This document shows positions 14,234-55,690 of a stretch of 64,000 bases of DNA, in pieces (positions within the stretch are counted from its first letter, which is position 1; each line of letters begins with the position of its first letter). The position numbers were made by a program, and so were the translations under genes. Below the pieces are notes generated by a model that ran no database searches, had not been told where the DNA came from, and saw only the letters and a list, made by a program, of their open reading frames with translations. Where the stretch lies: assembly GCA_951406725.2 (NCBI GenBank), contig OX597826.1, positions 26,784,001 to 26,848,000 on the forward strand. Reading direction: 5' to 3'. Source of the stretch: Octopus vulgaris (Eukaryota).

Positions 14234-14309
14234 CTACACTGATGATCTTGCAGATGTCTGTTTGTTTTATATACGTAGACATTAACAAGTGAAACCAACC
14301 GGTACGTAG
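14234..14309 (+). ncRNA. Type I hammerhead ribozyme motif, core intact
   Basis: ctaca-CTGATGA-t-cttg..atgtct/agacat..caag-t-GAAA-cc aacc gg-TA-cgtag; one mismatch closing stem I. Confidence 0.75.
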
Positions 14310-14485
14310 GTATTCGTTTTTAATTTCGTATATTTTCATTTGTCTTGCTCATTTTTACAGTTTGGCGTTTTGCTGAGATTTTTCTTGAGAACACATTCTT
14401 CGTGGTAATGGTATTTGACGTCTACGTTTAGCATATTAGGTGTCCACTTTAGTAGTCATTCCTCTTAATTCTTATATATATATAT

Positions 14486-15012
14486 ACTGTTTAGCGGTTT
14501 GAGTTTGGCTGCTCTTTCTGGTGAGTTGAATGGTCTATCAAGGCCATTCCTTAATATTGTTGAATGTCTATTATGTAGTATGTTGACTATTTTTTCTTTC
14601 TCACTAGACCGATGGTGGCGAAAAATTTTTCTTGAATCTTTTGCTACCCTGATATTGATTAATTAATGATTTTTTGGCTAATTCTGAAATTAAATCAGCA
14701 GTTTATATTGCTGCTGAGAAATTGGCGCGGTGACGGTAGATTTTGAAAATTTAGAATATATATACTCGAGGCGTCGCTGCTATCGCCTCGTGGATATATA
14801 TTTCCCTGGCTTCTTTACTGACGAGACAGGCCAGTGGTAAATAGATTTAATTTAGTTAAATTGGTTTCCCAATATGTCTGTCGAAAATATGCATAGTCCA
14901 GAGATGATAAGGGTAAATGTTTTTATTTTCCTTTGGTTTCTGAATTACAACTGTTTAGCAGTTTGAGTTTGGCTGCTCTTTCTGGTGAGTTGAATGGTCT
15001 ATCAAGGCCATT
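14486..15012 (+). mobile_element. Retrozyme-like non-autonomous unit: direct repeat with 464-nt period enclosing a hammerhead (14812-14904)
   Basis: actgtttagc.gtttgagtttggctgctctttctggtgagttgaatggtctatcaaggccatt at 14486 and 14950; between them CTGACGA-gacag...ctgtc-GAAA-atatgcatag-TC-cagaga. Confidence 0.65.
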
Positions 15013-15138
15013 ACGGATAATTCGAAAGATAACCGATACCTGGGTAGCAAACTCACAACAAAAAAGGCACGGTTGAAGTTACGACCATAGGGCATAAAAT
15101 CCGTGCCTTAGTGCGGAAATTTGAAGTTTTATATATTA

Positions 15139-15266
15139 AGTATAGGAAAGAATGGAGCTGAACGAAGATTTAACAAAATTCCTTTATTTTATTTCGAAAC
15201 ATATGTCGAAAATAAAATAAAGGAATTTTGTTAAATCTTCGTTCAGCTCCATTCTTTCCTATACTT
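15139..15266. repeat. Near-perfect palindrome (about 55-bp arms) with a hammerhead 3' half at its apex
   Basis: aagtataggaaagaatggagctgaacgaagatttaacaaaattcc / ggaattttgttaaatcttcgttcagctccattctttcctatactt; apex GAAAcatatgTC. Confidence 0.85.
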
Positions 15267-15983
15267 TATATATATATATATATATATATATATATATATA
15301 TATATATATATATATATATATGCATATGTATAATCAGCCTGCGGTGAGTCTGTGCATTCGTTTTCCCTTCCTTCAGTTTCTGCTTGTAATCAAGGTAAAA
15401 AATAGATTTGCAGGGATTTGAAAGGGATTTTATTACACGCACATGTATAGGGACAGTTGAGTACACATGAATGCATATGAGTATTTATATATGTGTGTGT
15501 GCGTGTGTGTGTCTGAGTGTGTGTGCATATATGTATATATATATATATATATATATATATATAGGTAGATATATTTATATATCTATATATACCTGTATAT
15601 ATATATATATATATATATATATATATATATATATGCATATGTATATATGTATGCATGTGCATATATGAGTATATATATATTTATAAGTATATGTGCATAT
15701 GTATATATATATATATATATATATAATATTAGGGAGCATAACTCCAAACATTATCTTTAATTTATATTTTATATATATACATATATACATATGCATATAT
15801 CTATCTATGTATCTTTCTAGCTAACTATATATTTATTAAAATTTTATGTATTGATTAAGTCTTTCCTTGTTTGTTTTACAAAATAGTGGTCTTGTCTCTA
15901 ATAATATTTTATATATATATATATATATATATATATATATATATATATATATATATATATATATATATATATACATATATATA

Positions 15984-16188
15984 AAATATGAATTAGAGAT
16001 AAAACCACTATTAGGCAACTCAAACAGTGATAGACATAAACCAATACGTAATTAACAAATAATATAAATATAATTAATATATTATATACTATATTAATAA
16101 TGTTTATATTATTTCATACTTATGTATTGGTTTATGTCTATCACTGTTTGAGTTGCGTAATAGTGGTTTTATCTTTAATTCATATTTT
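15984..16188. repeat. Inverted repeat next to (TA)n, Penelope-like terminus fold-back
   Basis: gataaaaccactatta.gcaactcaaacagtgatagacataaaccaatac and its reverse complement at about 16125-16174. Confidence 0.75.
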
Positions 16189-52829: not shown

Positions 52830-53122
52830 TAAATATACTGCATTTTGCGGCATTATTTGATGCCAACCGGCTTTTTTGCGCAAACTGCACTTGCATCTTT
52901 CTCGCGTACGCGTAGTATCGATCGCAACAGATGATGTACTTGCGCGTACAAATGTACGTTCCCACGGCTTTATCGATCGCATTCTCACCTGGAATCGATT
53001 TTTGTAACTTTTTCAAGATTTGTACACGCCCTGATACTGTGGGTATCTACATATCAAGTTTGAACGCAATCGGATGGAGGATGCCCGAAATTCTAGAAGA
53101 CACACAGACAGACAGAACGGAT
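52830..53122 (-). mobile_element. Non-autonomous Helitron/Helentron-like (DINE-1-type) fragment
   Basis: CpG-rich body ending atcaagtttgaacgcaatcggatg...acacacagacagacaga, like the subterminal motif plus microsatellite of these elements (from recall). Confidence 0.45.
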
Positions 53123-53131
53123 TAAGGTGAA

Positions 53132-54100
53132 TAAATACAAAATATGCAACATATCAAGTAGTAATGCAGTACGACCGTATACATATATATAATGTATTAC
53201 CATTACCTCAATATCTCGCTCCTTATTCATGCTTTAAAATTAATAGATAGTATGTATATCTTTCCAGATATACTACATGTAAGTACCTTGTGCGGCCTTT
53301 ATAGAAACCACCTAATAATTTATTAATTAATCACTAGAATGGTTATCAAACTGATTCTACATAATATTCCTTTTTGATTTGTATAATTGATATATATACA
53401 CCTGTCGACTATTTTGGTTATGATATCATTTTCGAATTCTTAAATTTTATTTTTATACAACATAATATTGTTTATACACGTTCCGCAATCGTTCCCCTCA
53501 TAAATTTTCCATGAATTAACATCTTAAGTTTGTGTCTTTCCCCTTTAACTGGTAACAAGCATCATGATTGAAAGTCTTCCCCTACCCTGCCTCTTTTTTT
53601 ATAGATAGTTACTTCTACGAAACTGAGTTTTCCCAATGTCTTATTTCCTTTCTCTTGGGGAAAAGGAATACCTATAATAATATTCATGACCATACCTAGC
53701 CATGAGCTATCAACTCACACTTGTTCTTTATTTAAGATAAACACAGTCTTCTAGACTCAGATTTTAATAGATGATAAAGCGATAAATAAATTAGAAATTA
53801 ATTACAAGCCTTACAACCCTGAGAACCCACTATGCTTCATGCGATTCTTACAAATTGCAGTCTATTCTTAGGCACTTTGCTACAATAGCGACATAATTTT
53901 CTTCCATCTTTTTAGTCTGTTAAAATATTTAAGAAAAATCATATTAATGTGTCCTACTTGTTAAAAAATTCTATATATTGTGTAGCTGAAGATAGCACTG
54001 CATTTAAATTGATGTAATGATTGCATTGTTCAATTAAATGGGGCCGCTTGGAACGGTCGTACTGCATTACTACTTGATATCCTGTTGCTTATTTTGATTT
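53132..54100 (+). mobile_element. Penelope-like remnant with inverted terminal copy and hammerhead (53981-54066, GAAA changed to GGAA)
   Basis: 53132-53178 is the reverse complement of 54053-54100; tgtag-CTGAAGA-t-agc..gct-t-GGAA-cggtcg-TA-ctgca; ends in (TA)n. Confidence 0.65.
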
Positions 54101-54388
54101 ATATATATATATATATATATATATATATACATATAGTTAATCCAAACCTGAAAACACAAAGAGAAAACACAAAAACGCGAGGACGTGGAACAAGTATAGT
54201 GTTATTGGACGCTCAGGAAATGAAAGAAAGAAGGAGGATTTAATATATATATATATATCAATATTGCGGTCGCACGAGGAGATATAGGTGGTCGCGTGCA
54301 TACGTGCATATATATGTATGTATACGTTCGTATATGTAATTATATCGTATGTTGTATATATATTTGTATTTATGGACTATCTGAGTAT

Positions 54389-54447
54389 ATTCCACTGATG
54401 AAGGCAGAGCATTTCTTATGCAGAGCCAGAAATCCGGGATCTGGAAT
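54389..54447 (+). ncRNA. Type I hammerhead ribozyme motif, core intact
   Basis: attcca-CTGATGA-a-ggc aga gcat..atgc aga gcc-a-GAAA-tcc g gga-TC-tggaat; 6-bp stem I; AUC triplet. Confidence 0.8.
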
Positions 54448-55005
54448 TATCCAGTAATTGTTTTGCTAGTTTATTTTGTCTCTATCTCTTCTCTCCTGGT
54501 GCTGTATGAACATTTAATGTGGTTTTAGAGTCAAATTTTTGCTGCTATCTCCAGCGTGTTGGTATCTCTTATATACCCTAAATTATAATTTCATATATAT
54601 TGTAAATGTTCATAATAACACTTCCAACCAGCTAACATCATACGGCATGAGAGCCAGTGCCTCGTAGTGCATCTTATCCGTTGAGGATACGGGTATTTCT
54701 GGCTTTTCAATTTACGATTCTTTTCGTTATTGGCACGAGGGCTTAAAATTTCTGCTCCACCTCCGGGTTTCACTTGATGAATATCAGTGAAAATTTGTGT
54801 TTGTAGTCGTCTTCTGGCTGCTATTTTTAACGTGTTAGTGTCATTTCTAACAACCTTAATTATTGATATATATCTATATCTATATCTATATATGTATATA
54901 TATACTAGCGAATCCAAAAATACGAATGAGATCTATATCTCATATGTATATATATATATATATATATATATATATATATATATATATATATATATATACA
55001 TATAT

Positions 55006-55690
55006 AAATCACAATAAGGGTGAAAAAAATTGAATATTAATTAATAACATCAATTTAAAACACCAAGTGGCCTAGCGTAAAAAAACTGTGATACAGTAAA
55101 AATTGTTAATGCAAGTAATAAGAGAGAGACCACATGTGGTCACTCTAACGCTAGAAATAGATCCGCAAAGGGAATCAACCACTAAAGAATTGTTCTCAAG
55201 CATTAATTCAACACGCCAAGAATGTAAGCGGGCAGGACAAATGAAAAATAACGAAAAAATAGATTAACGAAAAAAATAGATTGTTTCATCGTTAATAGAT
55301 TGTGTAATTTTACTTACATAATCATTTTCGAATCCTCAGTAGAGTATATCAAAAATATAATTTGCTGAACCGAACGCCAAAATCCATACGAAGCCGAGCA
55401 AAGGCGAACGGCACAGTCGATTATATTTGCAGTTATGTTCAAATATCCTCATTTTTGGCGCGTTGAAAATACTGAATGTAAATACTACCCCAGTAATTTA
55501 CTGCCGGTTTGAGAAGATATTAATTTATAATTAAAATCACAATAAGGGTGAAAAAATTGAATATTAATTAATATCATCAATTTAAAACACAAAATTAATG
55601 CTTGAGAACAATTCTTTAGTGGTTGATTCCCTTTGCGGATCTATTTCTAGCATTAGAGTGACCACATGTGGTCTCTCTCTTATTACTTGT
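55006..55690 (-). mobile_element. Retrozyme-like unit with 528-nt period, terminal inversion and a hammerhead lacking its cleavage site (55277-55342)
   Basis: aaatcacaataagggtg repeated at 55006 and 55534; 55593-55689 inverts about 55112-55208; reverse complement CTGAGGA-t-tcg...cga-t-GAAA-caat; loop II similar to that of 18410-18484; (TA)n on both sides. Confidence 0.7.

What the first reader, a model, noticed from the sequence alone, without database searches (positions are those of the whole stretch)
14234..55342. Recurrent non-canonical U·U or A·A pair at the base of stem II
The canonical position 10.1-11.1 is a Watson-Crick pair, usually G-C. Here, directly after CUGANGA and before GAAA, there is T/T at 14246/14290, at 53993/54049, in the 39669 paralogue and in the 55277(-) motif, and A/A at 54402/54428 and in the 52220(-) motif. 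Normal pairing mostly resumes one base further out. Recurrence across unrelated sequences argues for a tolerated or selected structural variant rather than decay. Strict descriptors would miss these ribozymes.
Basis: partly seen in the sequence, partly recalled or inferred. Interest (0 to 1): 0.7.

Follow-up and report, generated by a model that had tools for sequence, protein, structure and literature searches.

The report
Hammerhead ribozymes with open first pair
Thousands of copies of hammerhead-ribozyme repeats in this animal genome carry a mismatch instead of the usual G-C pair at the foot of one stem; the U·U form is already published as active, so this is likely a known tolerance, here unusually common and varied, though none of these RNAs has been tested for cutting.

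Summary
The six motifs belong to five repeat families; of 30 copies each, 28-30 keep U·U or A·A at 10.1/11.1, including a family whose copies are 98% identical. Four of the six window copies are damaged elsewhere. The variant is largely known: natural U10.1·U11.1 is reported (Perreault 2011), about 60,000 axolotl retrozyme hammerheads carry it and cleave (Cervera 2020), and the 2014 Penelope descriptor already allows an extra base at both places. The scan noted U·U before in a phage. The homo-pair idea is too narrow. Genome-wide pattern counts (hits/control): U·U 3852/89, A·A 3070/416, C/G·purine (mostly C·A) 2745/292, A·G plus A·C 2102/287, G-C 1426/55, C·C plus C·U 277/128. Sister subfamilies swap these states in exact register, so it is a substitution, not an insertion. 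These are type I hammerheads with palindromic stem III, likely cutting as dimers in Penelope-dependent repeats. New here: the spectrum (U·U or any mismatch with an A) and its prevalence. Activity of the A-containing forms is untested.

The parts
14234..14309 (+). Type I hammerhead, family A; U·U at 14246/14290; predicted cut after A14304; private A·C at the first pair of stem I and altered stem III palindrome
39664..39741 (+). Hammerhead remnant, family C; U·U at 39676/39732; 3' half of stem III, cut site and 3' strand of stem I lost
52212..52333 (-). Type I hammerhead, family E; A·A at 52319/52234; 86-nt stem II region; U at position 17; two private changes (stem III palindrome, stem I)
53981..54066 (+). 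Type I hammerhead, family C; U·U at 53993/54049; private A13G at 54051; family homology ends about 30 nt after the cut site
54389..54447 (+). Complete type I hammerhead, family B; A·A at 54402/54428 followed by G-C; 9-nt near-palindromic stem III; predicted cut after C54441
55280..55344 (-). Hammerhead remnant, family D (youngest, about 525-nt tandem unit); U·U at 55332/55288; cut site replaced by a local duplication in this copy
18410..18484 (-). Comparison copy: complete hammerhead with G10.1-C11.1, homologous to family D (same stem III palindrome, 74% identity over 89 nt from loop II onward)
13742..13812 (+). Comparison copy: hammerhead-like motif with an A-U pair at 10.1/11.1 and a 6-nt palindromic stem III; family not searched

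Best explanation
These are type I hammerhead motifs in at least five short repeat families that are likely mobilised by Penelope-like elements, and the mismatch at the first pair of stem II is a family-level substitution of the usual G10.1-C11.1 pair that the ribozyme likely tolerates. Shown: intact core, stems I and II pairing one base further out, an 8-10-nt self-complementary stem III, family-wide fixation, tandem and inverted arms in microsatellites, and swaps among G-C, A-U, U-A, U·U, A·A, A·G, A·C and C·A at this position between sister subfamilies. Inferred: two copies (tandem unit or two molecules) pair through the stem III palindrome and cut after position 17; the 3-4 pairs and long helix beyond the mismatch hold stem II so that bases 10.1 and 11.1 only need to stack on the A9·G12 pair; U·U would do so as a wobble and A-containing mismatches by stacking, while C·C and C·U would not, which explains their rarity; the rate cost is acceptable because these ribozymes are slow and dimer-dependent anyway. 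Mutation toward A/T (C11.1 is part of a CpG) likely feeds the change.
For: Family fixation, including family D at 98% median pairwise identity. In contigs of four public runs, family D shows no other letter at 10.1 or 11.1 at the 2% threshold while the neighbouring pair varies on both sides, T>C with A>G. Ten copies of one lineage: pair 10.1/11.1 is unpaired in 7 of 10 with six states, the next four pairs hold in 39 of 40 cells, stem III shows a double change. Family D versus the G-C copy at 18480: three double changes in pairs 10.2-10.4. Equal-length 33-nt motifs of one lineage occur with G-C, U·U, A·A and C·A (listings), so substitution, not insertion. Genome-wide counts with controls. In the random sample, 12 mismatch states in 37 clusters: 6 U·U, 3 A·A, 1 G·A, 1 C·A, 1 A·C, none C·C, C·U, U·C or G·G (about P 0.02 from base composition; clusters are not independent). 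Published activity of U·U forms. Two-copy folding gives the double hammerhead for 2 of 6 copies tried.
Against: No cleavage data for any of these RNAs. No cluster of copy ends at the predicted cut site in any of the five families (the sample favours full-length motifs). No Penelope reading frame was tied to families A-E: nearby RT/GIY-YIG pieces belong to separate insertions; a direct link was seen only for a G-C family (3 loci), and family C has only a degenerate upstream frame resembling an endonuclease end (recalled motif, no alignment hit). The covariation score of the 10-copy alignment does not clearly beat shuffles (32 of 500 reach it). Monomer folds are no better than shuffles for the five window copies tried, and 4 of 6 two-copy folds miss the full hammerhead. 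Copy counts are dominated by a few families. Loss of G12 at the CpG was not seen (0 of 45).
Confidence: 0.72

Rival explanations
1. The mismatch is positively selected: an extra non-Watson-Crick pair (sheared-type for A-containing states, wobble for U·U) stacks on A9·G12 and tunes the ribozyme, for example slowing it or making it depend on the dimer or on the element's protein.
For: Mismatch states outnumber G-C about eight to one among pattern hits with an 8-nt stem III after subtracting controls; U·U stays fixed while neighbours change; U·U and A·A are 9 of 12 mismatch states against 34% expected from composition; a lizard Penelope hammerhead cuts only with the element's protein (PMC11167929, passages).
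Against: One lineage passes freely through six states, paired and unpaired, which looks like relaxed constraint; in the unbiased sample G-C is still the commonest single state (17 of 43 copies, 11 of 37 clusters); an A/T-rich mutation bias gives much of the pattern.
Confidence: 0.15
2. The two bases are insertions (the known extra base between A9 and G10.1 plus an extra base before G12), with the true 10.1-11.1 pair one step out.
For: Both A·A families of the window and most C·A and G·A cases have G-C as the next pair; the extra base after A9 is the rule in Penelope minimal hammerheads; two family B relatives have the 3' A without the 5' A.
Against: Sister motifs with G-C and with a mismatch have the same length and align without gaps at this place; in U·U, A·G and A·C families the next pair is often A-U, U-A or C-G. 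For the N·A/G-C class the two readings describe much the same structure.
Confidence: 0.2
3. The mismatch families are catalytically dead passengers copied by Penelope enzymes that do not need cleavage.
For: In vitro insertion by a lizard Penelope element did not need hammerhead cleavage (PMC11167929, passages); no copy ends at the cut site; four of six window copies are damaged.
Against: The core is invariant across subfamilies whose stems have changed by double substitutions, which needs selection on the fold after the mismatch arose; the axolotl U·U hammerhead cleaves.
Confidence: 0.08

Closest known systems
Axolotl retrozyme hammerhead HHR_Amex2 (Cervera & de la Pena 2020, PMC7229834; section 15 read, supplement not readable)
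   Same: Type I hammerhead in a short non-coding animal repeat, tens of thousands of copies, U·U at the base of helix II, cleaves weakly as monomer (22% in 1 h) and better as dimer.
   Different: Canonical short stem II with loop-loop contact and 2-bp stem III there; here stem II regions of 27-86 nt, 8-10-nt palindromic stem III, and A·A, A·G, A·C, C·A states besides U·U; activity untested here.
Penelope-like-element hammerheads (Cervera & de la Pena 2014, PMC4209133; main text parts 1-2 of 4 and the whole supplement text read)
   Same: Type I, palindromic stem III, dimer design, inverted copies 100-700 bp apart; descriptor in Fig. S7 allows an extra N10 and N11; Hydra and Drosophila willistoni rows of Fig. 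S3/S5 read as U·U, and one row has A before GAAA (the Cotesia row by order; read from machine-extracted text, so inferred).
   Different: That paper's consensus is a 5'-only extra base with G10.1-C11.1 kept and no or tiny stem III, loop 2 at most 10 nt; here a symmetric mismatch is several times commoner than the 5'-only bulge (14 versus 4 of 43) and no reading frame was tied to families A-E.
Natural U10.1-U11.1 hammerheads (Perreault et al. 2011, PMC3088659; section 8 and passages read)
   Same: U·U at the first pair of stem II in nature; stated to be the most active mismatch in earlier mutagenesis.
   Different: Treated as a rare variant with very short stem II; A-containing mismatches are not mentioned in the passages read.

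Membership tests
Type I hammerhead ribozyme | Core CUGANGA, GAAA and NUH in type I order, closed by stem I | tested here: met
   Core columns 93-100% conserved in all five families; stem I of 4-6 pairs in family copies, bulged in family E; two window copies lack the cut site and one has A13G
Type I hammerhead ribozyme | Watson-Crick pair at 10.1-11.1 (conserved, with published exceptions) | tested here: not met
   U·U or A·A in 28-30 of 30 copies per family; published active exceptions exist, so this does not exclude membership
Type I hammerhead ribozyme | Match to an Rfam hammerhead model | tested here: not met
   0 matches at gathering score in the window, also none for the G-C copy at 18480, so the miss is not due to the mismatch alone
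Type I hammerhead ribozyme | Self-cleavage after position 17 | not testable with these tools
   Needs in vitro transcription; genome copies give no footprint at the cut site
Penelope-type dimeric hammerhead | Short self-complementary stem III able to pair between two copies | tested here: met
   8-9-nt palindromes, self-duplex -5.8 to -11.1 kcal/mol; full double hammerhead is the lowest-energy two-copy fold in 2 of 6 copies
Penelope-like element (autonomous) | Hammerhead in a terminal repeat behind an RT + GIY-YIG reading frame | tested here: inconclusive
   Not found for families A-E within 1.3 kb upstream or by extension; seen for a G-C family in 3 loci (GIY-YIG match E 0.007, below Pfam's cut-off)
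Animal non-LTR retrozyme | Non-coding tandem unit of a few hundred bases with one type I hammerhead per unit | tested here: inconclusive
   Tandem spacing 486-535 nt (A), 348 and 587 nt (B), 523-528 nt (D); none seen for C and E in 3-kb loci; inverted second copies in all five
Animal non-LTR retrozyme | Transcribed and found as circular RNA | not testable with these tools
   Only assembled contigs of runs of uncertain kind were available

The most novel reading that the evidence does not exclude
Long-palindrome dimeric hammerheads of animal retroelements use position 10.1/11.1 as a structured, selected non-Watson-Crick slot (U·U wobble, or a sheared-type pair with an A stacked on A9·G12) that tunes cleavage to the dimer or to the element's protein; such forms would be the majority of hammerheads in some genomes and largely missed by current searches.
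Probability: 0.15. Interest if true: 0.5.

Novelty: new member of a known kind. Interest (0 to 1): 0.25.

Why it matters
Practically, hammerhead censuses that demand a pair at 10.1-11.1 undercount by about half in this genome (20 of 43 missed). For RNA structure, the sister subfamilies are a natural mutational series at the second most conserved hammerhead pair and give a ready test set for whether A·A, A·G, A·C and C·A support cleavage. It does not change what the ribozyme does or open a new mechanism unless selection for the mismatch is shown.

Tried and rejected
Decay of single copies: rejected. Homo-pair rule (only U·U or A·A): rejected. Rfam scan: no match. Copy ends at the cut site: none in five families. 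Link of families A-E to a Penelope reading frame: not found. Idea that losing C11.1 protects the catalytic G12 from CpG decay: not supported, G12 changed in 0 of 45 copies of C11.1 families and 6 of 300 others, with sampling bias; C11.1 to U in 8 of 45. Monomer folding against shuffles: uninformative. Expression: no RNA holder listed; contigs cannot show ends or strand. U·C, G·U, A-U and U-A were not counted genome-wide, and the pattern covers only stem II regions of 14-44 nt with an 8-nt ACNNNNGU stem III, which leaves out families B, C, D and E themselves. Literature: Lunse et al. 2016 on Penelope hammerhead variants is not held and may already describe these mismatches; also not held: PMC2271363, PMC44321, PMC5850863; the supplement of PMC7229834 could not be read; the pairwise-mutagenesis paper PMC9901934 gave no numbers for this pair in the passages read and its supplement was only listed. 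Searches that found no account of A-containing mismatches at this pair.
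Full report
Check of the observation. The window is C13:26784001-26848000 of G000, a 2.8-Gb microsatellite-rich animal genome. The 39669 and 53986 motifs are one family, so there are five independent cases. Only 54395 is a complete hammerhead. 53986 has GGAA for GAAA, 39669 and 55339(-) have lost the cut site, and 14239 and 52326(-) carry private changes. Rfam finds nothing in the window at gathering score, not even the G-C copy at 18480(-).

Decay or family state. Each motif was searched in G000; the first look gave 372-2375 candidates, 40 were scored and 30 loci kept per family. 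At 10.1/11.1: family A T/T 28 of 30, B A/A 30 of 30, C T/T 29 of 30, D T/T 30 of 30, E A/A 28 of 30; the next pair is Watson-Crick in 25-29 of 30. These copies were chosen by likeness to the window copy, which favours agreement, but they differ from each other by 2-9% (median pairwise identity 0.91-0.98). Family D is young (0.98), so it was amplified with U·U in place. In contigs of four public runs, family D shows no other letter at 10.1 or 11.1 at a 2% threshold while the adjacent pair changes on both sides. The mismatch is therefore ancestral to each family.

Anatomy. Family copies are type I hammerheads: stem I of 4-6 pairs, CUGANGA, a stem II region of 27-86 nt that begins with the mismatch and then 3-4 pairs, GAAA, an 8-10-nt self-complementary stem III, and A, C or U at position 17. 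The palindromes self-pair at -5.8 to -11.1 kcal/mol; the lowest-energy fold of two copies is the double hammerhead for 2 of 6 copies tried. Monomer folds of the five window copies tried are no better than shuffles. Copies lie among TA-rich microsatellites, with inverted second copies in all five families and tandem units of 486-535 nt (A), 348 and 587 nt (B) and 523-528 nt (D). That is the layout described for Penelope-like elements and their non-coding riders (PMC8557442, passages; PMC7229834, section 15; bioRxiv 10.64898/2026.07.22.740005, part 1 of 5). I could not tie families A-E to a reading frame: RT and GIY-YIG pieces near them belong to separate insertions. A G-C family does sit 280-360 nt behind a GIY-YIG-like frame in 3 loci. 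No family shows copy ends at the cut site.

How common, and which mismatches. In 140 random 10-kb stretches a descriptor blind to stem II found 43 hammerheads, with 0 in reversed and 0 in complemented controls: 23 paired (17 G-C), 14 with a 1x1 mismatch (7 U·U, 5 A·A, 1 G·A, 1 C·A), 4 with the known 5' extra base, 2 other. A relaxed version gave 49 hits (2 and 2 in controls) in 37 clusters; 12 mismatch states were 6 U·U, 3 A·A, 1 G·A, 1 C·A, 1 A·C and none C·C, C·U, U·C or G·G (about P 0.02 from base composition, clusters not independent). Whole-genome counts for CTGANGA-X-N12..42-Y-GAAACNNNNGTH, hits over control: T·T 3852/89, A·A 3070/416, G·C 1426/55, C·Y 277/128, A·S 2102/287, S·R 2745/292. 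By my hand count of the first 100 listed, A·S is 55 A·G and 45 A·C (some A·C are the 5' bulge or decayed G-C copies); S·R is mostly C·A by eye. The pattern covers only part of the hammerheads and counts copies, not families. So the rule is 'U·U or a mismatch containing A', not homo-pairs, although U·U and A·A are the commonest.

Substitution, not insertion. Sister subfamilies change state in exact register. Ten copies of one lineage show A-U, U-A, A·A, U·U, A·G and A·C; the pair is open in 7 of 10 while the next four pairs hold in 39 of 40 cells and stem III shows a double change (the overall covariation score is reached by 32 of 500 shuffles, so it is weak by itself). A second lineage has 33-nt motifs with G-C, U·U, A·A and C·A (listings). 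Family D is homologous to the G-C copy at 18480(-), with three double changes in pairs 10.2-10.4. For the N·A class the next pair is usually G-C, so a double-insertion reading describes much the same structure there.

Mechanism. Shown: the fold, the fixation, the swaps, the spectrum. Inferred: the RNA cuts as a dimer through stem III; the helix beyond the mismatch keeps stem II formed, so 10.1 and 11.1 need only stack on A9·G12; U·U as a wobble and A-containing mismatches by stacking or sheared-type pairing are acceptable (geometry recalled, not tested), C·C and C·U are not; the loss of rate costs little in a slow, dimer-dependent ribozyme. C11.1 to U was seen in 8 of 45 copies of C11.1 families, a mutational route out of G-C. 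Protection of G12 from CpG decay was not supported. Selection for the mismatch remains possible; free passage through six states in one lineage argues for tolerance.

Comparison with what is known. Perreault 2011 (PMC3088659, section 8 and passages) reports natural U10.1-U11.1 and states it was already the most active mismatch. Cervera and de la Pena 2020 (PMC7229834, section 15) describe about 60,000 axolotl retrozyme hammerheads with U·U at the base of helix II that cleave 22% in an hour as monomer and better as dimer. Cervera and de la Pena 2014 (PMC4209133, main text parts 1-2 of 4 and supplement text) give a descriptor with a possible extra N10 and extra N11; their Hydra and D. willistoni rows read as U·U and one row has A before GAAA (inferred from machine-extracted text). 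I found no account of A·A, A·G, A·C or C·A as large natural families, but Lunse et al. 2016 and the 2020 supplement could not be read and may hold it. Earlier notes of this scan recorded U·U in a phage as ordinary and two-armed long-stem-II repeats in this genome.

Verdict. Real, family-wide and not decay, but mostly a known tolerance in a known kind of ribozyme. What this adds is the breadth of the tolerated set and its prevalence, plus a natural mutational series for the bench. Interest 0.25.

Noticed in passing
window 60286-60325 (+) and 60665-60735 (-); L321: Two inverted copies of a motif with CUGAAGA whose stem I partner lies before GAAA (scrambled strand order), around a piece 92% identical to a GIY-YIG frame with a CxxC linker (L101); matches the rewired hammerhead that earlier notes describe for this genome.
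   Followed up: partly
window 26774-30193 (-): Broken non-LTR retrotransposon: endonuclease-like and reverse-transcriptase-like frames in pieces, with a cysteine/histidine-rich C-terminal piece at 26508-26885.
   Followed up: no
window 54143-54243 (-): 3' tail of a very abundant repeat; loose ends show it continues into a minimal hammerhead with the known 5' extra base (A bulge, G-C, ACGU stem III).
   Followed up: no
window 53750-53900 (+): Degenerate frame upstream of the family C hammerhead that resembles the end of a Penelope endonuclease (recalled motif; no alignment hit at E 0.5); family C ends sharply 30 nt after the cut site.
   Followed up: partly
L281:4900-5450: Two inverted arms of an A·A hammerhead repeat joined a few bases upstream of the ribozymes, both ending in TA microsatellite.
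   Followed up: partly
window 52212-52333 (-) and families: U at position 17 is the family state in several families (family E and a large tandem family with ACGUACGU stem III).
   Followed up: no
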